58,645 bases of DNA from the IMG/VR virus record IMGVR_UViG_3300012895_000001, positions 1 through 58,645 of that record; one strand, given 5' to 3'. Both the position numbers and the translations under genes were made by a program. Origin of the DNA: a virus. Lineage: Duplodnaviria; Caudoviricetes. Each line of letters begins with the position of its first letter. Position 1 is the stretch's first letter. The notes under the pieces are model-generated. The model was given only the letters and a program-made list of their open reading frames with translations, was not told the DNA's origin and searched no databases. Shown here in pieces: positions 6,451 through 57,403 of the stretch.

Positions 6451-6870
6451 ATGAACCTAACCAACCAACAACTCGCCGTCTCCAATCTAGCTCAAGAAGC
6501 CCGGCAATTGATAATGAAGATCGAACTGGTCTTGCAACAGCTTATCCCGTCGCCGCCAGCCTCGCTCACGGCGGATCAGCAGCAGAAGGTCAAGCTCATC
6601 CTGAAAGTGGTCGAGAAGCGGTTTGGCGTGCCGTCCCATCGAGTTCTGGACCGGACGAAGGAGCAACACGTCGTGGATGCCCGTCACGCAGCCATGTGGC
6701 TTGTGGCGCGCGGTATGGCATTGGACAACCTTCGCATCGCCCGGATTTTCAGGCGCGACCGGAAACTGGTGATCCACGCCATCAAACGAATGAACGACCT
6801 GCTGGCGAACGAACCGGCCTTCAACGAAACCATGCGGCTGGCGCAAAAAGATTTGGGGATGAAGGGATGA
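6451..6870 (+). CDS. DnaA C-terminal (domain IV)-like HTH protein
   Basis: V...FGV....VL.RTK.Q.VV.AR.AAMWL...IARIFRRD...VIHA matches the Bac_DnaA_C pattern. Confidence 0.75.
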   Translation: MNLTNQQLAVSNLAQEARQLIMKIELVLQQLIPSPPASLTADQQQKVKLILKVVEKRFGVPSHRVLDRTKEQHVVDARHAAMWLVARGMALDNLRIARIFRRDRKLVIHAIKRMNDLLANEPAFNETMRLAQKDLGMKG

Positions 6871-7027
6871 GAATTGGACTGAACAAATTGACTTTGCGCC
6901 ATTCATGCGAACATGAATCGGTTAAACTTTTACCCATCTCCGCGCCGGATGATCCGGCACTTTCCTTGCCGTCAGGCATGGTCATGTTCGCAGCGTGGGG
7001 TGGGTATTTTTCAAGATAATAGCGAAC

Positions 7028-7744
7028 ATGAAATATCAAATCAAAGATTGGGTTTCTCATTTTGAGAATGATCGCAGCAAGACGCGGGCGCAATGCTCGT
7101 TTGTCTGCGTCCCAAACAAGCAGCATGGAATGGGATTCTGCCGCATCATGGCCGAGCCAGATGGCGCGGCGATTTACGGAATCTGGCATTGTTTAGTCGG
7201 TGCCTGCTCACAGCAAAAGAAGCGTAACGGTTGGCTCACCATTGACGGTGAGCAGGCGGGGATCGCATGGGGATCGGATGACCTGTCATTGAAATTTCGC
7301 CGCCCAGTGGCCGAGATAGACCGCGCTCTTGATTTTTTAGCTTCAGACAAGGTTGGATGGCTAATTAAGCATCAAAACACCAATGAAATCAACAATCCGC
7401 CGCCTAATCACCGTCCAATCACCGTCCAATCACCGTCTAGTCCTCTGAAAGAAGGAAAGAAGGAAGAGAAAGAAGGAAGAGAAGGCGCTCCCCATTTTCC
7501 AGAATCGGAAACGCCATCGTGGAAAGAATTCTGGGGCTACTGCCAAACCCAAGCCTGCCTGCTGCCGGCTGAATGGTTCGTTAAAGACAAATTCGAGGCG
7601 GCCAATGCCGACCACTGGAAAAATAAAACCGACTGGCGGGCTTATGCCAGAAGGATCAAGGGATGGTGGGAACAGGATGGCAGGCCGATGAAGGCCAAAT
7701 CAATTTCGGGCAAATCTCAATCTCATAAAGGAGGCCCGCTATGA
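7028..7744 (+). CDS. phage replication initiator protein
   Basis: Immediately upstream of DnaB; internal iterons and A-rich tract; C-terminal W....DWRA.AR..W. Confidence 0.7.
   Translation: MKYQIKDWVSHFENDRSKTRAQCSFVCVPNKQHGMGFCRIMAEPDGAAIYGIWHCLVGACSQQKKRNGWLTIDGEQAGIAWGSDDLSLKFRRPVAEIDRALDFLASDKVGWLIKHQNTNEINNPPPNHRPITVQSPSSPLKEGKKEEKEGREGAPHFPESETPSWKEFWGYCQTQACLLPAEWFVKDKFEAANADHWKNKTDWRAYARRIKGWWEQDGRPMKAKSISGKSQSHKGGPL
7406..7438 (+). repeat. 11-bp iterons (AATCACCGTCC x3), putative replication origin
   Basis: Tandem repeats followed by a purine/A-rich tract inside the initiator, as in lambda O. Confidence 0.65.
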
Positions 7745-50958: not shown

Positions 50959-51048
50959 GGAGCGGTGGCAGAGAGGCTGATAGCATCCGGCTCGAACCCG
51001 GATTTACCAGAAATGGTAACGGAGGTTCAAATCCTTCTCGCTCCGCCA
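50959..51048 (+). tRNA. tRNA-Ser(CGA)
   Basis: GGAGCGG acceptor, TCCGG-CTCGAAC-CCGGA anticodon arm, long variable arm, GGTTCAAATCC, encoded CCA. Confidence 0.85.
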
Positions 51049-51190
51049 ATTTTAGTGACGCCGGAAACGGTGGGAAGTTTTGAGAATGACAGCCAACGCA
51101 TCCGCCGCAAGGATGGAAGCTAGTGAGTGCCGAGAGGTTCATTGCGCTGTGTGGCTCCAAACAGCAATCCAGTGATTGCCGTCACTATTC

Positions 51191-51276
51191 GGAAGTTGTC
51201 CGGCTGGTCGAGGACACTCGTTTGAAGCGAGCAACGGGTAACACCGTCGGGGGTTCGAGTCCCTCAGCTTCCGCCA
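51191..51276 (+). tRNA. tRNA-Ser(TGA)
   Basis: GGAAGTT acceptor, CTCG-TTTGAAG-CGAG, long variable arm, GGTTCGAGTCC, encoded CCA. Confidence 0.75.
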
Positions 51277-51439: not shown

Positions 51440-51739
51440 ATGGCAACACCTTCGCGGCTTGAAAATTCTTCCAACCTCGTCCAAAAAACCATTGAAGAAA
51501 GAAGCAAGATTTACGGCGACCCGCGCCTGTCGCACGAAAACATCGGCCTCGCGTGGACGGGCATGATCCAGCAGCACTACGGCATCCGCCTCGACCATCC
51601 ATTGCCCGACTGGCTGGTGGAACTGATGATGGTGCAGTTCAAATGCCAGCGGTCGGCACGGGTTTATCATGGTGATAATTACGTTGACGCGCGTGCCTAC
51701 CTGCAATTCGCCGAGCAAGACCAGCAGACGGAGGCGTGA
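51440..51739 (+). CDS. DUF6378-like phage protein
   Basis: ER..IYGDP.....IG..W...MM..FK..R...H.DNYVD...Y. Confidence 0.75.
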   Translation: MATPSRLENSSNLVQKTIEERSKIYGDPRLSHENIGLAWTGMIQQHYGIRLDHPLPDWLVELMMVQFKCQRSARVYHGDNYVDARAYLQFAEQDQQTEA

Positions 51740-51757: not shown

Positions 51758-52732
51758 TCACAACTGATCCAGCGGACTTTTCGCGTGATTCAGATTGACG
51801 CAATGAGTATAAATCATGGTCGTCGTAATATCCTTGTGGCCCAGCAGTGATTGAAGCATCTGCAAATTTCCACCGTTCTCCAAAAAATGCGTGGCAAAGC
51901 TATGGCGGAGAATGTGCGGATGAACCCGCTTGTTGATTTTGGCGCGCTGGCCGGCCAGCCGCAGGGCGGTTTGAAACCCATTCGGAAACAAGTGGTGCCG
52001 CCGCATCGCACCGTCATCCGCCAGGCAAATCTCGCGTGATGGGAAAACCCATTGCCATTTGAAATCCTTCGGCGCATTGGGATATTTTTTAGCCAGCGCA
52101 TCGGGCAACCAGACCGAGCCAAAACCATTCTTCAAATCATTTTCATGGATTGATTTTGTGTTGGCAACCCTAAGTTGCAAATCATCAATCAGGCTTTTTG
52201 GCATTGGCACCAGGCGGTCTTTTCCGCCTTTGCCGTCCTTGACGATCACCATTTTGTTCCCAAAATCCAGTTCCTTGACCCGCAGGCGAAGGAGTTCCAT
52301 TAAACGCAGGCCGGAACCGTAGCCCAGCTTCGCCAGCAAGAGCCAGTCGCCTTCAAGTTTTTTGAACAATTCAGAAAGCTCATCACGGGTCAGCCATTCG
52401 GGAATGTTCGGCTGCGTCTTGGCGCGTTCGGCCTTCACCTTGCCAAACTCTTTTTGCAGGACATGACGGAACAAAAACAGGAGTGCATTGAACGCCTGAT
52501 TTTGGGTCGAGGCCGAAACTTTCCTGTCAACCGCCAGATGCGTCAGGTATCTTTCAACCATCTTGCCATCCAGACAATCAGCCGTTCCGCAATCCGCCCA
52601 AGAAAAGAAATCAGCGCAAACATTTACATAGGCATAGACCGTGCTTTGAGCCATGTGCGCCGTCGCCATGATTTCCCGCAACCGTTTAATCAATGGCGAC
52701 TTCTGCTTAAATTGTTCAGCCGAGAATAACAC
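51758..52732 (-). CDS. intI: integron integrase
   Basis: VSASTQNQAFNALLF; YGSGLRL.E; KGGKDR; integron-specific insert HENDL..GFGSVWLP.AL.KKYP...W.WVFPS...RRHH; HILRHSFATH; LGH...TMIYTH. Confidence 0.95.
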   Translation of the reverse strand: MLFSAEQFKQKSPLIKRLREIMATAHMAQSTVYAYVNVCADFFSWADCGTADCLDGKMVERYLTHLAVDRKVSASTQNQAFNALLFLFRHVLQKEFGKVKAERAKTQPNIPEWLTRDELSELFKKLEGDWLLLAKLGYGSGLRLMELLRLRVKELDFGNKMVIVKDGKGGKDRLVPMPKSLIDDLQLRVANTKSIHENDLKNGFGSVWLPDALAKKYPNAPKDFKWQWVFPSREICLADDGAMRRHHLFPNGFQTALRLAGQRAKINKRVHPHILRHSFATHFLENGGNLQMLQSLLGHKDITTTMIYTHCVNLNHAKSPLDQL

Positions 52733-52740
52733 AATGTTTG

Positions 52741-52759
52741 TGTCTAATGATTGTTCAGT
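52741..52759 (+). other. attI site (L TGTCTAA, 5-bp spacer, R G|TTCAGT)
   Basis: Adjacent to the intI start; GTTCAGTGGCAC is the exact reverse complement of cassette 1's own R'' region. Confidence 0.7.
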
Positions 52760-53052
52760 GGCACTATTCTATGCCACGGCGTTCTCAGCTTTTCAGGATC
52801 ACCACCGAGCTTGGTAGCGATTTCCCGCATGAGGGGTTCACACATCTTCACAGCCTCTTGCTTGTGGATGTCGCACAGCCGCCACTGCATCACAGAGCCA
52901 TCGTCCATCAGTGCCGGAGATTGCCACTCTGCGTTTTCTTGGCATCTGTAGTCTCGGAAGTTGTATAGCCAGTCACACTGTGCCACTGAACCACTTGATG
53001 GAGTGGACACGGCGGGCGTCGTAGGCGATTTGATAACGTCAGGATTGTTCAT
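52744..53052 (-). CDS. cassette 1 ORF, Cys-containing hypothetical protein
   Basis: Start inside attC1, stop inside attI. Confidence 0.6.
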   Translation of the reverse strand: MNNPDVIKSPTTPAVSTPSSGSVAQCDWLYNFRDYRCQENAEWQSPALMDDGSVMQWRLCDIHKQEAVKMCEPLMREIATKLGGDPEKLRTPWHRIVPLNNH

Positions 53053-53087
53053 GGTCTTTGTTCGTGCCACTCATCGCGGCGTTCAGC
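52985..53087 (+). other. attC1
   Basis: ACTGAAC...GAT(G)GAGTGG / CCACTCATC...GTTCAGC. Confidence 0.85.
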
Positions 53088-53598
53088 TTCCGCCGCTCAC
53101 ACCCGCTGCGCTGGGGTGTGCCGGCTGGGTTACGCTTTTAGTTCCTGCCCGTTCATTCCAGTTAGAAATCGCGCGTTTAAGCGTAATGGCTCCAACAGAC
53201 ACCTCTGCCGGACATTCCATGTTCACACAAAATAGCTGCCAATAATCTGGCTCGATGCTTGTTTCCTTGGGTTGTGCGCCACAAAACGGGCAGGGCAACG
53301 CCTCAAGTCCAGCCGGACCGCTTTGGAAGCTGAACGTCTGAGCTATCAGCGCTGGCTTCATCTTCCGCTCATCGCTGGACGGCAGACTTGCCATTGGAGC
53401 GTTCTGGCTCTGCACGCTTTCAGGCTCGACAGGCGCGGCGGAAGCTGAACCCATCGCTGAAGGTGGACACCCGTGCCGGGCTTCGCTGCGCTCCGTCCCT
53501 GAATCAAGCACACCACCACGCACGATGTCGCCAAGTCTCTCCAAAAGTTCTTTTCTTCGTTTGCCTTTTTTCATATATGCTTGATTCAGGGATGCCAC
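53083..53598 (-). CDS. cassette 2 ORF with Lar-like (restriction alleviation) Zn finger; start uncertain
   Basis: LPCPFCG...C...C......AI..WN.RA. Confidence 0.65.
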   Translation of the reverse strand: MASLNQAYMKKGKRRKELLERLGDIVRGGVLDSGTERSEARHGCPPSAMGSASAAPVEPESVQSQNAPMASLPSSDERKMKPALIAQTFSFQSGPAGLEALPCPFCGAQPKETSIEPDYWQLFCVNMECPAEVSVGAITLKRAISNWNERAGTKSVTQPAHPSAAGVSGGS

Positions 53599-53616
53599 TT
53601 AGCTCAGACGTTAGGG
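53444..53616 (+). other. attC2 (long, 173 bp)
   Basis: GCTGAAC...GCTGAAGGTGG / CCACTTAGC...GTTAGGG; inner 15-bp inverted repeat TCCCTGAATCAAGCA. Confidence 0.75.
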
Positions 53617-53642
53617 CACTTAGTCTCCTCGTGCCGTTGCGT

Positions 53643-53894
53643 TCACGGTTCGATTGTGTTTGGGAATGGAATCGGACCACCTTTGCCTTCCATTGCAGCC
53701 TTGATGTCATCGGCGTGCAGACACTCACGCAGGTCTGGGCATCGGTCGTTGTTGGACGGGATTGCGATTTTCCCGTTACACATATCGTTGCCGGGAGTTG
53801 CATCGTAGAGGATTCCCGCCACTGGCGGCCCATACGATGGGATCAATACCACCTTGTCACCGTTCCTTGCTTCTCTGCCGTTCTTGTAGTGCAT
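53643..53894 (-). CDS. cassette 3 ORF, phage-type hypothetical protein
   Basis: MHYKNGREA.NGD.V...G...CNG...CLHADD. Confidence 0.75.
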   Translation of the reverse strand: MHYKNGREARNGDKVVLIPSYGPPVAGILYDATPGNDMCNGKIAIPSNNDRCPDLRECLHADDIKAAMEGKGGPIPFPNTIEP

Positions 53895-53924
53895 GTTATT
53901 TTGTTTTTGTTGTTATCCGCCGTG

Positions 53925-54016
53925 CCCTAACCAGTCAGTTGAGCGAAAGCGACGGGCGACCGCCTTCGCAAATTCAACGCTTATTGTCCGCCGCTCCGCT
54001 CACTTCCGCGTTCGTG
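53925..54016 (+). other. attC3
   Basis: CCCTAAC...AGT(T)GAGCG / CGCTCACT...GTTCGTG. Confidence 0.85.
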
Positions 54017-54153
54017 GACTTCGCCCATCGAGCTTTCGCGGCGGCACTGGCCGCTTGTTTGCGCTCGGCTTTGGACATTCCAGCCCATCGTGATTTTCCG
54101 CCCTTCACTTGGTTTTGTGCCTTGAAGGTATGGCCGCATTTTGGGCATTTCAT
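53974..54153 (-). CDS. cassette 4 gene 2: CPKCGH Zn knuckle plus basic 'GG.SRW...AAKARW' protein
   Basis: ATGA-coupled to the upstream gene; stop inside attC3. Confidence 0.65.
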   Translation of the reverse strand: MKCPKCGHTFKAQNQVKGGKSRWAGMSKAERKQAASAAAKARWAKSTNAEVSGAADNKR

Positions 54154-54437
54154 GCGAGCCTCGCTTTCTCCCGTTCGACCACCGTTTTTTGCAGCGTCGA
54201 GACATTGGGATGTTTCATCCAGATTGCGACCCGGCACGCCACGGTTGCCCGCTGGCTGTAGTCGCCCGTTTGCCAGAGGTAGCGCAGGCCTCGCACGGCT
54301 TGATCGCGCAGGATTTGCCGCACTTTGGCATCGTCCGCTTCTGGGTGTTTCGATGTTCTCCACTCGGCGAAGATGCGAGCGCAGCAGTCGGCGAGGGCGT
54401 AGGATTCCATGAATGGCATTGGTATTTGTTGTTTCAT
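54150..54437 (-). CDS. cassette 4 gene 1, hypothetical protein
   Basis: Starts 8 nt below the -10 box. Confidence 0.65.
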   Translation of the reverse strand: MKQQIPMPFMESYALADCCARIFAEWRTSKHPEADDAKVRQILRDQAVRGLRYLWQTGDYSQRATVACRVAIWMKHPNVSTLQKTVVEREKARLA

Positions 54438-54445
54438 ACGCCACC

Positions 54446-54474
54446 ATCTTATGCGAGCTAGCTCGCATTGTCAA
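54446..54474 (-). promoter_or_regulatory. cassette-internal promoter TTGACA-17-TAAGAT with perfect 18-bp palindrome ATGCGAGCTAGCTCGCAT
   Basis: Directly visible. Confidence 0.8.
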
Positions 54475-54498
54475 GCGGTTATTTTTATTCGACCAGTC

Positions 54499-54606
54499 CC
54501 CGAACCATGCGCTGATGCAGACCACCGGCCACGCTGCCCGTGAATCGGTAACGTCCCTTGCGCTCGTGAGTTGGTCGGTCGGTGGCTGCATAGCTATTCG
54601 TTCGGC
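54499..54606 (+). other. attC4
   Basis: CCCGAAC...GCT(G)ATGCAG(A)CCACCG / CGGTGGCTGCATAGC...GTTCGGC. Confidence 0.9.
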
Positions 54607-55157
54607 TTCATGAACACCATCCAATGCGTCTTGGCCGTTTTGCCACACCGTTGCCCCACGAGCGGACGCTCGGGAGTGAGTGCCAGTATTTGTGAGACTG
54701 GCACTTCGTGTTCGTTCCATTTGAAAATCAGAGTCCCTTCCGGCCGCAGCACGCGGAAGCATTCAGCGAAGCCGAGGCGCAGCATCTCTTTCCAGTCGCC
54801 TTCGAGCTTGCCGTATTTCTTGGCCTGCCATCCCTTCTTGCCGGCCCGCACCAGATGCGGCGGGTCGAACACCACGAGCGCGAAACGGTTGTCAGGCCAC
54901 GGCAGGTTCGTGAAGTCGGCGATGACATCGGGATTCACTTCGAGCGTCCTACTTCCGCCACGACTCGACACGTCCGTCAGCACATGGGTTTCGCGCCGCT
55001 TGTCCGCGAAGATTGCGCGGGAGTCTTTCCGGTCGAACCAGAACATCCGAGAGCCGCAGCACACGTCCACGACAGAAGCCGAACCAGTCGCTGCACGCTC
55101 AATGACTACCGCGTTGACGGTTTCAGGCGAGGCGGACGCTGTTGGCGCGGTAGTCAT
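54594..55157 (-). CDS. cassette 5 ORF: phage SAM-dependent methyltransferase
   Basis: DVCCGSRMFWFD, VVFDPPH, ECFRVL.P.GTLIFKW; start in attC5, stop in attC4. Confidence 0.85.
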   Translation of the reverse strand: MTTAPTASASPETVNAVVIERAATGSASVVDVCCGSRMFWFDRKDSRAIFADKRRETHVLTDVSSRGGSRTLEVNPDVIADFTNLPWPDNRFALVVFDPPHLVRAGKKGWQAKKYGKLEGDWKEMLRLGFAECFRVLRPEGTLIFKWNEHEVPVSQILALTPERPLVGQRCGKTAKTHWMVFMKPNE

Positions 55158-55178
55158 GGCGTGAGCTTCACGTTAGAG
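55078..55178 (+). other. attC5
   Basis: GCCGAAC...GCT(G)CACGC..ATGACTACCGCG / CGCGGTAGTCAT.GCGTGAGC...GTTAGAG. Confidence 0.9.
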
Positions 55179-55360
55179 GCTTGCAGACGTTCCGCACGGT
55201 TCACTTCGCACAGGATGTCCGAGATGGGGTCTTTGTGCTTTTTGGATTTGCAGATTTTTCCAATCATCTCAAGTGCATTTGAGAGGACAGTGATTTTGCG
55301 CCACGCCCGAAGGAGTGATTTGTTCTTGGCTTCGATTATTTGCTTTTTTGTTGCTTTCAT
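55154..55360 (-). CDS. cassette 6 ORF, basic hypothetical protein
   Basis: Stop overlaps the methyltransferase ATG inside attC5. Confidence 0.6.
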   Translation of the reverse strand: MKATKKQIIEAKNKSLLRAWRKITVLSNALEMIGKICKSKKHKDPISDILCEVNRAERLQASNVKLTP

Positions 55361-55384
55361 GTTTTTAGTGTTGTTGATGTTCGC

Positions 55385-55491
55385 CTCTAACCAGTCATCG
55401 CAGACCAACCGCGAGCGGCGCTGCTGGTCAATCGGTAACGTCTGGTGCGCTCGGTCATCATGGTTCGCGGTGGCTGGATTCCACGTTGGGT
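55385..55491 (+). other. attC6
   Basis: CTCTAAC...ATC(G)CAG(A)CCA(A)CCGCGA / TCGCGGTGGCTGGAT...GTTGGGT. Confidence 0.9.
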
Positions 55492-55781
55492 GCTTCAGTA
55501 TTTGACCGCCACTCCTTCCATATTTTTAGTCGCGTTTCCACGTTTTTAAGCTGTCCCCAAGCGCCGTCAATCTCCTCGTCGGTTATTCTTGCGGCCTCTC
55601 TGGCCGCCCTATCGGCCACCACGGCGGCTTGGTGTCTGGCTTTGGCTCGGTCGAGTTCTACGTTTAGACCAACAAGCGTATCACCATTCGGACTTTTGCT
55701 GTTGATGTGGCACTCCGTGCAGACCTGTTCTCCGTTCACGACGAATGCGCCGTGACGCTCTGGATGTTTTTTACAGTTCAT
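55458..55781 (-). CDS. cassette 7 ORF, Zn finger plus coiled coil
   Basis: C..H...CTECH; stop inside attC6. Confidence 0.6.
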   Translation of the reverse strand: MNCKKHPERHGAFVVNGEQVCTECHINSKSPNGDTLVGLNVELDRAKARHQAAVVADRAAREAARITDEEIDGAWGQLKNVETRLKIWKEWRSNTEAPNVESSHREP

Positions 55782-55800
55782 ATTTTTTGCATTTAATCGC

Positions 55801-55899
55801 ACCCAACCAATCACCGAAGCGGACGGCCTTGGGCGCATTTAGTCCGCTCTCGCGGGTGACGCGCCTTGTGGCCGTCCGCCGCTTGGTTCTGCGTTAAAT
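55801..55899 (+). other. attC7 (distal end of the array)
   Basis: ACCCAAC...ACC(G)AAGCGG / CCGCTTGGT...GTTAAAT. Confidence 0.85.
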
Positions 55900-55908
55900 A
55901 ACTGCGCC

Positions 55909-55938
55909 TATAAAAACACAATGAATCAATAGTGTCAA
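55909..55938 (-). promoter_or_regulatory. candidate leftward promoter (TTGACA -35, weak -10) reading into the array
   Basis: Minus strand TTGACA-ctattgattcattgtgt-TTTTAT. Confidence 0.45.
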
Positions 55939-55979
55939 GCGTAATTATTTTGCGACTCAAAGACGCCCGCGCTTGCGTG

Positions 55980-57086
55980 TCACAGCTTTCTCACCGCCGC
56001 ATTCAAATCTTCCATCCGCCCGTGCAGGTAGGTTTTCAGCATCATTTTCCCGCCATCTTTATCGCCACGCAGCAGGGCCACCATCGCTGGCGGAATGTTC
56101 TTGGCCAGCGCGCGGGTCGTGAACAAGTGCCGGAAATCACTCGGCGTCATCGTTGGAATCTTGGCATCCTCGCACGCCCCCGCCAGCGCCCGCCTCGGGC
56201 TTTTGATAGGCACCAGCGGCGAGCGTCCGCCGGGATGAGATTTCAACAATTCCTTCACCACCACGCGCATCTGAAACGCCATCGGCAGTTCATCGGCTTC
56301 CTTGTCATGCTTGATGGCCCGCCAGCGGATTGTATTGCGCTCCAGGTTCACGTCCACTGGCAAGATGGACCGGATGGAATGTGGCCGCTTGCCGGAATAG
56401 GCCAGCGCCCGGATGAACCAATAGGCCCGCCGCCGCGTCGGGTCGCGCCGCAGATGCCTCAACAGTTGCGCCAATTGTTTCTCTGACGGCATCTGGCGCT
56501 CCTTTTTGGGTAAAGCCAGCCGTTTGACCTTCAAAGCGGGATTCGTCGCCGCCAAGCCTAATTCAATCGCCAGATTCAATATCCCGCGCAACGTCTCAAG
56601 GCAGCCATTGAACCGGCCGGGATAATAACCCGCGCGCCAAAACTTGACCGCCCACTCCTTGCAATCCGCCTCGGTGATGTTATTCGCCCGCATCGAATCC
56701 AGATCCGGCCACGTCTTGCGGAGCATCCTTAACGTGTCCAGCCGATATTCTTTGGCGCGCGGCTTGCGCGGCACGCCATCGCGCTTGCAATTAGTGTCCG
56801 CCTTCACCTTCTTCGCCCAGGCATCGGCAACCTGCTTGAAAGCGTAATCGTCCACGTTCGGGCGCCCCGACGTAGCCTTGCGCATCTCCCGCGTTTTCCT
56901 CAAAAGCTCATCCAGCCGCAGCTTGGCGATCTCCGACGACTTCGTTTGGAGGCTTTTTTTGAGTTGCTGACCGCAAACCATCGCCCCGCAAAAGTAGGTG
57001 CCGGAGATGCGGTCGCGGTAAAGATTGGCGAACTTGGTCTTTTGCAGCCTTTTCTTAATGTAAGACGACGATGTAAGAATCTCCAT
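55980..57086 (-). CDS. int: phage integrase (tyrosine recombinase)
   Basis: AYSGKR, K, DFRH, RGD...KTYLH; arm-binding N-terminus; adjacent to attP. Confidence 0.85.
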   Translation of the reverse strand: MEILTSSSYIKKRLQKTKFANLYRDRISGTYFCGAMVCGQQLKKSLQTKSSEIAKLRLDELLRKTREMRKATSGRPNVDDYAFKQVADAWAKKVKADTNCKRDGVPRKPRAKEYRLDTLRMLRKTWPDLDSMRANNITEADCKEWAVKFWRAGYYPGRFNGCLETLRGILNLAIELGLAATNPALKVKRLALPKKERQMPSEKQLAQLLRHLRRDPTRRRAYWFIRALAYSGKRPHSIRSILPVDVNLERNTIRWRAIKHDKEADELPMAFQMRVVVKELLKSHPGGRSPLVPIKSPRRALAGACEDAKIPTMTPSDFRHLFTTRALAKNIPPAMVALLRGDKDGGKMMLKTYLHGRMEDLNAAVRKL

Positions 57087-57092
57087 AAAAGT

Positions 57093-57139
57093 GAGCCAGT
57101 TGTCGGGATTGAACCGACGACCGACGGTTTACGAAACCG
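57093..57139 (-). other. attP core: 3' half of tRNA-Thr(CGT)
   Basis: Minus strand CGGT-TTCGTAA-ACCG, GTCGG-TTCAATC-CCGAC, acceptor strand; no 5' half. Confidence 0.8.
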
Positions 57140-57403
57140 AATGACTACCTACATAAGCCTTCACAGTCAATTCCAAATGCCGGTTTTATTGGCTTTTTTG
57201 ATTGTCAGATTGCGAAAACATCCACTCACAACCACCCAGATTCACCATTTTAAGGCCACCTATGTAAGAACTGCCTATGTAAGATGGGTTTTTTGAGGTT
57301 AAGAAATTTATTAGTTTTGATTTCATGGGGTGCGGTTGTTATGGTTGGCGCTTCACATTTTTAGCCAAATGGCACTTCTGTCACAATCTGTATTTGAAAG
57401 GTC

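What the first reader, a model, noticed from the sequence alone, without database searches (positions are those of the whole stretch)
52741..55491. Recombination sites double as coding sequence: starts, stops and translational coupling lie inside attC/attI
The cassette 1 ORF starts in attC1 and stops in attI (52744). The methyltransferase starts in attC5 and stops in the neighbour's attC4. ORFs of cassettes 4, 6 and 7 read through the G|TT crossover as an Asn codon (LN, TN, PN, SN, PN across the five crossing ORFs, all in the same frame) and stop in the adjacent site. In attC5 the cassette 6 stop overlaps the methyltransferase start (ATGA, 55154-55157). Because the frame across the crossover is conserved, re-ordering cassettes would swap C-terminal tails and coupling partners, and could make in-frame fusions where a site lacks a stop. 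That would be a protein-diversifying use of attC (inference).
Basis: partly seen in the sequence, partly recalled or inferred. Interest (0 to 1): 0.88.

Follow-up and report, generated by a model that had tools for sequence, protein, structure and literature searches.

The report
Backward-facing integron cassettes share one reading frame
In this phage-borne integron the captured genes lie backwards relative to their recombination sites, so most genes run across the recombination point in one fixed reading frame and borrow their stop codon, and sometimes their start codon, from a recombination site.

Summary
The window is a viral record carrying a true integron integrase (51758-52732, minus strand), an attI crossover at 52753 and seven attC sites up to 55899.

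Four lines of evidence put the attC top strand on the plus strand: bulge positions, a class-1 aadA control, linkage in natural recombinants, and the position of intI and attI. All cassette genes lie on the minus strand, so they are antisense to their attC and co-directional with intI.

Five ORFs cross G|TT with AAC read as Asn and stop 1-11 codons later in the neighbouring site. The ATGA overlap at 55154-55157 is real.

In 80 metagenome loci holding the same methyltransferase:
- all 131 attC hits are antisense to it;
- 64 of 66 boundary-crossing ORFs use the same frame;
- that frame closes within 30 codons at 98 of 104 sites;
- its stop overlaps a downstream ATG at 29 of 103 sites, against 6 and 6 in the control frames.

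Close methyltransferase homologues keep "KPN" and then carry different tails.

Tail swapping is therefore real. A protein-diversifying purpose is not supported. A standard interface for termination and translational coupling fits better, but that part is inferred.

The parts
51758..52732 (-). intI, integron integrase (324 aa)
   Evidence: TIGR02249 353.5 bits, cut-off 265; Pfam Phage_integrase and SAM-like N domain
52711..52760 (+). attI region. Crossover G|TT at 52753-52755. ATTGTTCAG is repeated at 52711-52719 and 52750-52758. GTTCAGTGGC is complementary to the R'' of attC1.
   Evidence: Read from the sequence. No attC-like hairpin here; model R1 gives no hit.
52744..53070 (-). ORF1 (108 aa, orphan). 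Starts inside attC1, crosses the attI crossover as Asn, stops at TAG 52744-52746, 11 nt before the intI start.
   Evidence: no homologue; codon score about 0
52985..53087 (+). attC1
   Evidence: R1 65.4 bits, E 1.3e-13; bulges on the 5' arm
53083..53394 (-). Lar-like restriction alleviation gene. Likely start is M69 of the long ORF 53083-53598. TGA stop lies inside its own cassette.
   Evidence: PF14354 1e-07; phrog_599; N-terminal extension scores as non-coding
53444..53616 (+). attC2, a long site with a large central structure
   Evidence: Same box and bulge pattern by eye and by fold. Not found by R1, so it is the weakest site.
53643..53894 (-). ORF3 (83 aa), contained wholly in cassette 3
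   Evidence: codon score +0.12
53925..54016 (+). attC3
   Evidence: R1 57.9 bits, E 1e-11
53974..54153 (-). ORF4b (59 aa, zinc-ribbon-like). Its ATG overlaps the ORF4a stop (ATGA). Crosses the attC3 crossover as Asn and stops inside attC3.
   Evidence: A foreign contig's homology starts at 54009.
54150..54437 (-). ORF4a (95 aa)
   Evidence: codon score +0.11
54446..54474 (-). Promoter-like site TTGACA-17-TAAGAT with the palindrome GCGAGCTAGCTCGC in the spacer, upstream of ORF4a
   Evidence: 10 of 12 consensus match only
54499..54606 (+). attC4. The same site type is 91-92% identical in three other viral contigs.
   Evidence: R1 89.3 bits; blastn
54594..55157 (-). DNA methyltransferase (187 aa). 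ATG lies in attC5, 28 codons of attC5 are read as a leader, and it crosses the attC4 crossover as ..KPN, E, stop.
   Evidence: phrog_954 2.1e-72
55078..55178 (+). attC5. Holds the ATGA overlap at 55154-55157.
   Evidence: R1 52.3 bits. L092 shares the whole site plus the methyltransferase but has a different upstream neighbour.
55154..55360 (-). ORF6 (68 aa from ATG 55360; 84 aa from TTG 55408). Crosses the attC5 crossover as Asn.
   Evidence: 11 homologues sharing the conserved KICxSxKHKDPxxDILCExNR block
55385..55491 (+). attC6
   Evidence: R1 69.8 bits
55458..55781 (-). ORF7 (107 aa from ATG 55781; 126 aa from ATG 55838 inside attC7). Crosses the attC6 crossover as Asn.
   Evidence: Only match is the 107-aa entry identical to the window's own protein.
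55801..55899 (+). attC7, the last site of the array
   Evidence: R1 63.6 bits
55980..57086 (-). Second tyrosine recombinase (phage-type integrase), co-directional with the cassette genes
   Evidence: phrog_1 1.2e-24; no match listed to TIGR02249

Best explanation
This is an integron with an ordinary platform on a phage-like contig. IntI is divergent from the attC top strands and attI lies next to the intI 5' end. The unusual part is that the cassettes carry their genes on the attC bottom strand.

The genes therefore read towards attI and intI. Together with the phage integrase upstream and intI downstream, they form a compact block of genes all on one strand.

Each gene's 3' end abuts the 5' boundary of its cassette. 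Most genes have no stop codon of their own. They read the crossover triplet as an Asn codon and end a few codons later at a stop supplied by the neighbouring attC or by attI.

The sites are built for this. The shared frame is almost always closed quickly. Its stop often overlaps or adjoins the ATG of the next gene. In the methyltransferase cassette the whole attC is read as an N-terminal leader.

Shown here: site orientation, the fixed frame, rapid closure of that frame, the stop/start overlaps, tails that vary with the neighbour, and linkage of the gene to its upstream attC.

Inferred: the block is transcribed as one or a few minus-strand messages. A ribosome finishing one gene melts the attC hairpin and restarts on the next gene. 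The shared frame then keeps any cassette order translatable.
For: Orientation of the sites:
- Bulged bases lie on the plus-strand 5' arm. The class-1 aadA attC shows the same on its sense strand. Bouvier 2009 states that the R''-L'' arm is the longer one (passages of PMC2727003).
- Model R1 hits the aadA attC on the aadA-sense strand, but hits 131 of 131 sites antisense to the methyltransferase in 47 of 80 loci.
- In at least 7 comparisons, near-identical methyltransferase genes keep the upstream attC flank (0.86-1.0 identity) while the flank after the AAC is unrelated (about 0.6). No pair shows an unrelated upstream flank with a conserved downstream one.
- Contigs from other samples break off at 54009 and 54599, which are the crossovers.
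- In the window, L009, L011 and L096, intI is divergent from the attC top strand.
- A sense cassette with TAA inside R'' exists in L011.

Frame across the crossover:
- Window: 5 of 5.
- Other viral loci: 13 junctions in that frame, none in another.
- Metagenome loci, 104 unique junctions: 64 cross in frame 0, 2 in frame 1, 0 in frame 2, 10 end with TAA|C, 14 stop inside their own cassette, 14 have no long bottom-strand ORF.
- With the methyltransferase excluded: 50 of 55.

Closure of the frame: frame 0 closes within 30 codons at 98 of 104 sites, against 63 and 64 for the other frames.

Coupling: an ATGA overlap at the frame-0 stop at 29 of 103 distinct attCs, against 6 and 6 in the control frames, and at 14 of 21 methyltransferase attCs.

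Start inside attC: in 27 of 41 rows the attC ends 3-9 nt before the conserved VLD motif, with no start codon in between.

The genes are real: phrog_954, Lar, N6_N4_Mtase and HTH matches; ORF6 homologues; every plus-strand alternative ORF has a negative codon score.
Against: - There is no transcription or translation data. No RNA holder of this stretch was listed.
- ORF1 and ORF7 are orphans with near-zero codon scores.
- attC2 is not found by the model.
- At attC7 the extra bases partly lie on the other arm.
- The first bulged base is G on the top strand in most window sites, whereas the aadA site has C at that position.
- The 80 metagenome loci were chosen because they hold one particular antisense cassette, so they are a biased sample. 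Some are near-duplicates, and junctions within one array are not independent.
- Only 46 of 103 attCs have an ATG near the frame-0 stop, so coupling cannot be universal.
- Cassette 4 appears to have its own promoter, which argues against a single message.
- 7 of 10 sampled bottom-strand ORFs have no Pfam match.
- Why this frame rather than another is used remains unexplained.
Confidence: 0.72

Rival explanations
1. The site orientation is mis-assigned. The genes would then be ordinary sense cassette genes whose 3' ends overlap their own attC, which is a familiar arrangement. Only the position of intI would be odd.
For: Read on the minus strand alone, the array looks classical: a short leader after a GTT box, a gene, then a stop in the following site. 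The complementarity between boxes is symmetrical and cannot decide the question. The first bulged base is G on the plus strand in most window sites.
Against: - Model R1 gives the sense strand for aadA and the antisense strand for 131 of 131 sites here.
- The bulges lie on the plus-strand 5' arm.
- The methyltransferase stays linked to the attC on its 5' side, not its 3' side.
- Foreign contigs break at the right-hand boxes.
- The site next to intI has no hairpin, so the last cassette would lack an attC.
- L058 sites align base for base with the aadA top strand.
Confidence: 0.07
2. The overlaps are by-products of compact cassettes and of ORF finders extending to the farthest start codon in GC-rich DNA. 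The shared frame would be a historical accident carried by related cassettes and sites, with no role in expression.
For: Open frames are common at about 60% GC. Plus-strand ORFs of up to 265 aa here are spurious. The entries identical to the window's own proteins start ORF6 and ORF7 outside the attC sites. The attC sites in the sample are related to each other, and the loci share one cassette.
Against: - 50 of 55 junctions not involving the methyltransferase use the frame.
- The top strand gives a flat control of 33, 19 and 16.
- Closure of the frame and ATGA overlaps are enriched only in that frame.
- The ATGA overlap is kept although its distance from the crossover varies from 17 to 47 nt among different attC types.
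- The IntIs of four such integrons are only 37-39% identical.
Confidence: 0.16
3. One reading: attC-encoded termini are used to diversify proteins, with shuffling creating new tails and fusions that are selected for.
For: Tails do differ among close methyltransferase homologues. A few sites leave frame 0 open for more than 100 codons: L109, L112, L157, L162 and L163.
Against: Tails are short and follow the neighbouring site type, not the protein. 98 of 104 sites close the frame within 30 codons. Methyltransferase homologues such as P0025, P0057 and P0120 end right after ..KP, so the tail is dispensable.
Confidence: 0.05

Closest known systems
ORF-11 / ORF-18 of attI1 in class 1 integrons, with translational coupling to the first cassette
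   Same: An ORF spans the recombination crossover, takes its in-phase stop from the neighbouring element's core site, and helps translation of the next gene by termination-reinitiation (passages of PMC8876359).
   Different: ORF-11 is a short leader peptide on the sense (Pc) strand and exists only at attI1. Here full-length genes on the opposite strand cross attC and attI crossovers at most junctions, in one frame shared across many arrays.
Short ORFs inside attC that relieve the hairpin barrier to translation of the next cassette
   Same: Translation running into an attC hairpin is proposed to allow the downstream cassette to be translated (PMC8876359, section 3.2 passage).
   Different: That case was described for sense-strand transcripts of class 1 arrays. 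Here the bottom-strand RNA would be the message, and the stop/start overlap lies in the L' arm.
N-terminal heterogeneity of AAC(6')-Ib
   Same: A cassette protein has ends that vary with its genetic context (abstract and passages of PMC3656343).
   Different: There the N-terminus of a sense cassette varies. Here the C-terminal tail of antisense cassettes varies, always after a fixed Asn.
Reverse integrons of Treponema
   Same: intI and the cassette genes point the same way (passage of PMC3607928; PMC4889954).
   Different: In Treponema, intI is transcribed towards attI and shares the orientation of the attC sites. Here intI is transcribed away from attI and opposite to the attC top strand, and only the genes are inverted.
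Integrons and attC clusters in phage genomes
   Same: Integron integrases, attC clusters lacking an integrase, and methyltransferase cassettes occur in phages (passages of PMC9892861).
   Different: The passages I read do not mention antisense gene orientation, a fixed frame, or coding overlap. I did not read the whole paper or its supplements.

Membership tests
Integron (platform) | Integron-type tyrosine recombinase IntI | tested here: met
   TIGR02249 353.5 bits against a cut-off of 265
Integron (platform) | attI next to the intI 5' end, with the crossover in a GTT | tested here: inconclusive
   GTTCAGTGGC at 52753 is complementary to the R'' of attC1 and lies 21 nt from the intI start. There is a repeated ATTGTTCAG and no hairpin. 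Binding and recombination were not tested.
Integron (platform) | Array of attC sites with R''/R' boxes, an unpaired spacer and bulged bases on the R''-L'' arm, all on one strand | tested here: met
   6 of 7 sites found by model R1 at E of 3e-10 or lower, all on the plus strand. The same model finds the class-1 aadA attC.
Integron (platform) | Pc promoter directing transcription into the array | tested here: inconclusive
   Plus-strand consensus matches lie inside intI at 52059-52088 and 52239-52266. These are pattern matches only.
Classical cassette | Gene on the attC top strand, upstream of its own attC | tested here: not met
   0 of 7 window cassettes. In the related arrays, 90 of 104 junctions have a bottom-strand ORF of at least 60 codons ending near the crossover.
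Reverse integron (Treponema type) | [quoted passage not shown] | tested here: not met
   intI is on the minus strand and the attC top strand is the plus strand. The intI 5' end faces the array.
ORF-11-type coupling | ORF spanning the crossover, with its stop supplied by the neighbouring element | tested here: met
   5 window ORFs and 64 junctions elsewhere
ORF-11-type coupling | Translation of the spanning ORF raises expression of the next gene | not testable with these tools
   Only the stop/start geometry could be counted.

The most novel reading that the evidence does not exclude
att sites of these integrons act as universal translational connectors. Every antisense cassette leaves its boundary in the same reading frame. 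Every attC, and attI too, closes that frame and offers a restart. Any cassette order would then give a translationally coupled operon that ends in intI, tying cassette expression and integrase expression together. This would be a natural reading-frame standard for modular gene assembly, used by phages to carry anti-restriction genes.
Probability: 0.35. Interest if true: 0.9.

Novelty: new variant of a known kind. Interest (0 to 1): 0.8.

Why it matters
The integron model assumes promoterless genes read from Pc on the attC top strand, with the genes nearest attI expressed most.

Arrays whose genes all lie on the other strand must be expressed from the far end or from internal promoters, and transcription would run into intI. 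That changes how cassette position, cassette expression and integrase expression relate to each other.

The fixed frame across the crossover also has practical uses:
- It helps annotation. Stops and starts inside att sites are real and should not be trimmed away.
- It gives a sequence signature for finding such arrays.
- It offers a testable design rule for how shuffled genes stay translatable.

The cassettes involved include methyltransferases and a Lar-like protein. This suggests that phages use integrons to exchange anti-restriction genes.

Tried and rejected
- The search for related loci with IntI in viral contigs found no relative.
- Relatives cannot be drawn for a virus record.
- My first energy-based attC scanner was too crude. 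I replaced it with a box-and-bulge matcher and then with covariance model R1.
- attC2 is missed by R1.
- ORF1 has no homologue. ORF7 matched only the entry identical to the window's own protein. The tail test could therefore not be repeated on these two.
- No RNA holder of the stretch was listed, so expression could not be examined.
- Read laying used contigs only. The joints it listed inside the methyltransferase have short sides (21-29 letters) at 90% likeness, and I did not use them.
- ORF length as a guide to the coding strand was rejected, because spurious plus-strand ORFs are longer than the real methyltransferase.
- A script looking for att repeats of the second integrase got no answer and was not repeated.
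- Literature searches listed no paper describing antisense cassette arrays or a fixed frame across the crossover. These were keyword searches of open-access text only. Subscription papers and supplements were not seen.
Full report
**What is there**

The window is a whole viral record of 58,645 bases, classed as linear and estimated 73% complete. Most long ORFs up to about 50.3 kb lie on the plus strand.

From 51758 to 57086 there is a block of minus-strand genes:
- an integron integrase at 51758-52732 (TIGR02249 353.5 bits, cut-off 265);
- nine cassette ORFs;
- a phage-type integrase at 55980-57086 (phrog_1). Next to it is a weak match to the 3' end of tmRNA at 57101-57141.

Between the two recombinases lie seven attC sites. 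The box positions are:

| Site | R'' (first base) | G of G\|TT |
|---|---|---|
| attI | - | 52753 |
| attC1 | 52985 | 53081 |
| attC2 | 53444 | 53610 |
| attC3 | 53925 | 54010 |
| attC4 | 54499 | 54600 |
| attC5 | 55078 | 55172 |
| attC6 | 55385 | 55485 |
| attC7 | 55801 | 55893 |

The sites share one plan: AAC, five unpaired bases, three or four pairs, a bulged base, three to six pairs, a second bulged base, then the stem. On the other arm there is no bulge, then five bases ending in C, then GTT.

**The observation**

- Five minus-strand ORFs read the crossover triplet as Asn and stop 1, 2, 5, 8 or 11 codons later in the adjoining site: LN-NH*, TN-AEVSGAADNKR*, PN-E*, SN-VKLTP*, PN-VESSHREP*.
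- The ORF6 stop and the methyltransferase start overlap as ATGA at 55154-55157.
- The Lar-like ORF ends with a TGA inside its own cassette, and ORF3 ends 33 nt before the crossover.

Given which frames can cross at each site, I estimate the chance of five out of five at about 1 in 108 (my own arithmetic).

**Which strand is the top strand**

Everything depends on this, because the box complementarity is symmetrical. If the sites were read the other way round, the array would look ordinary. Five independent results agree that the plus strand is the top strand.

1. The bulged bases lie on the plus-strand 5' arm. In the class-1 aadA attC, taken from a plasmid record as a control, the bulges lie on the 5' arm of the strand on which aadA is sense. 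Bouvier et al. 2009 describe the R''-L'' arm as the longer one and show that the bulges set strand choice (passages of PMC2727003).
2. Covariance model R1 was built from 17 sites in my orientation. It finds the aadA attC on the aadA-sense strand at E 2.3e-10.
3. In the window, L009, L011 and L096, intI is divergent from the attC top strand, as in classical integrons. The site next to intI has no hairpin.
4. L011 has a first cassette with sense ORFs and a TAA inside R'' of the same attC type. The family therefore does hold ordinary cassettes in this orientation.
5. Natural recombinants show what moves together.
   - L092 shares the methyltransferase and the whole of attC5 with the window, but has a different gene beyond the crossover.
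   - Among pairs of loci with near-identical methyltransferase cores, at least seven comparisons keep the upstream flank (0.86-1.0 identity) while the flank after the AAC is unrelated (about 0.6). No pair shows an unrelated upstream flank with a conserved downstream one.
   - Contigs from other samples begin their match to the window at 54009 and 54599, which are the right-hand boxes.

So the mobile unit is the gene plus the attC on its 5' side, and the gene is antisense to that attC.

**The genes are real**

- The methyltransferase matches phrog_954 at 2.1e-72 and has at least 7,837 homologues at E of 1e-5 or lower; only the 8,000 best candidates were scored.
- The Lar-like ORF matches PF14354 and phrog_599.
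- ORF6 has 11 homologues sharing a conserved block.
- All seven plus-strand alternative ORFs tested have negative codon scores. Six of the nine minus-strand cassette ORF entries scored are positive and three are near zero.
- ORF1 and ORF7 are orphans, so they rest on position and frame only.

**The pattern is general**

The attC4 motif led to three other viral contigs. One of them is a complete phage with terminal repeats, four attC sites and no IntI. In these and three further viral loci, 13 ORFs with at least 50 open codons upstream cross a crossover. All 13 use the Asn frame.

I then fetched 80 metagenome loci holding close relatives of the methyltransferase.
- R1 found 131 sites at E below 0.1 in 47 of them, and all 131 are antisense to the methyltransferase.
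- I classified 104 unique junctions, taken from 108 full-length sites at E below 0.001 in 41 loci, by the longest bottom-strand ORF ending nearby:

| Class | Junctions |
|---|---|
| Crosses in the Asn frame | 64 |
| Crosses in frame 1 | 2 |
| Crosses in frame 2 | 0 |
| Ends with TAA overlapping the crossover | 10 |
| Stops inside its own cassette | 14 |
| No bottom-strand ORF of 60 codons or more | 14 |

- With the methyltransferase excluded, 50 of 55 junctions use the Asn frame.
- The same test on the top strand at R'' gives 33, 19 and 16.
- If the junctions were independent, which they are not fully, 64 of 66 would have a binomial probability near 1e-28 (my own arithmetic).
- A sample of ten of these ORFs gave three Pfam matches, including a DNA methylase and an HTH protein.

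**The sites are fitted to the frame**

- After the crossover, the Asn frame closes within 30 codons at 98 of 104 sites. The other two frames do so at 63 and 64 sites.
- At the first stop in the Asn frame, 29 of 103 distinct attCs have an ATGA overlap whose ATG opens an ORF of at least 50 codons. A further 17 have such an ATG within -10 to +20 nt. The control frames give 6 and 6 ATGA overlaps.
- For the methyltransferase's own attC, 14 of 21 cases have the ATGA overlap and two more have TGATG. The overlap lies 17 to 47 nt from the crossover in different site types.
- In 27 of 41 rows the attC ends 3-9 nt before the conserved VLD motif, with no start codon in between. The only in-frame start codons lie inside the attC, and each of these rows has an ATG there, 17-28 codons upstream in most of them.

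The claim that the methyltransferase starts in attC5 is therefore well supported.

**Tails**

Homologues of 81-97% identity all keep ...VFMKPN and then differ: NEKSSNVPPKTDKR, NDQAHVRPEQP, NVKASE, NAEVSDAKRSLD, NRVER, NTL and others, against NE in the window. More distant homologues such as P0025, P0057 and P0120 end right after ..KP. The tails follow the type of the neighbouring site.

At attI, the first cassette's ORF crosses in the same frame in three integrons. The tails are NH in the window, S in L009 and M in L096, and the intI start follows 11-33 nt later. The IntIs of these integrons are only 37-39% identical to the window's.

**How it most likely works**

Shown:
- Antisense cassettes.
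- One shared exit frame.
- Sites that close that frame and often place a start codon at the stop.
- An attC read as a leader.
- Tails set by the neighbour.

Inferred:
- The block is transcribed on the minus strand from the far end and from internal promoters. One candidate, with an operator-like palindrome, lies at 54446-54474.
- Ribosomes ending inside the attC hairpin open it and restart on the next gene, as proposed for ORF-11 and for short ORFs in attC (PMC8876359 passages).
- The shared frame keeps this working after any reshuffling.

I cannot say why the Asn frame, rather than another frame, became the standard.

**Comparison with what is known**

The platform passes the tests for an integron. 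The cassettes fail the classical feature of a sense gene upstream of its attC.

The arrangement also differs from the Treponema reverse integron, where intI itself is turned and shares the orientation of the attC sites.

The closest known mechanism is ORF-11 of attI1, which spans the crossover and takes its stop from the inserted cassette. Context-dependent protein ends are known for AAC(6')-Ib. Phage integrons and attC clusters with methyltransferase genes have been reported.

Five keyword searches listed no paper on antisense arrays or on a fixed frame across the crossover. I read only listings and passages, and no supplements.

**Verdict**

I class it as a new variant of a known kind and find it of high interest.

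Noticed in passing
L010 (G003) 6634-7735: A complete phage genome with direct terminal repeats (56,423 bases) holds four attC sites on one strand inside a run of minus-strand genes. No integron integrase was found anywhere in the record.
   Followed up: partly
window 54499-54606; L009 14424-14532; L011 4134-4242; L010 7627-7735: One attC type is 91-92% identical in four viral contigs, with unrelated DNA on both sides. Its bottom strand carries an ATG two bases after the frame-0 TAG and an open frame reading MQPPTDQLTSARDVTDSR. In L009 that frame runs on into a DPPY DNA methyltransferase, and in L010 into a small zinc-finger ORF.
   Followed up: partly
window 53325-53460: GGAAGCTGAAC occurs twice (53325 and 53440). 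A 23-nt imperfect inverted repeat (53346-53368 / 53438-53460) overlaps the R'' of attC2. It could form an alternative hairpin competing with attC2.
   Followed up: no
window 54446-54474 (-): Promoter-like TTGACA-17-TAAGAT with the 14-nt palindrome GCGAGCTAGCTCGC in the spacer, just upstream of ORF4a. It looks like a self-regulated cassette.
   Followed up: no
window 57101-57141 (-): Weak match to the ends of the tmRNA model (15.5 bits, E 0.0047) right next to the phage-type integrase. It may be the attachment core of an element that integrates into ssrA.
   Followed up: no
window 50959-51276 and 51440-51739: Two tRNA-Ser genes (anticodons cga and tga) and a 99-aa ORF matching PHROG families labelled phosphofructokinase lie between the plus-strand phage genes and intI.
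   Followed up: no
window 52059-52088 and 52239-52266 (+): Promoter-like sites inside intI pointing into the array, where Pc lies in class 1 integrons. If active, they would make RNA antisense to every cassette gene.
   Followed up: no
L009, L011, L096 against window 51758-52732: The integron integrases next to these antisense arrays are only 37-39% identical to the window's, although L009 and L011 share its attC4 type. Cassettes or sites seem to move between distant integrases.
   Followed up: partly
L009 13186-15490: The antisense cassettes in G001 look like a GroES-like protein, a PAPS-reductase-like protein, a DPPY DNA methyltransferase and a DUF551-like protein. These names come from reading the sequences by eye and no family search was run on them.
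   Followed up: no
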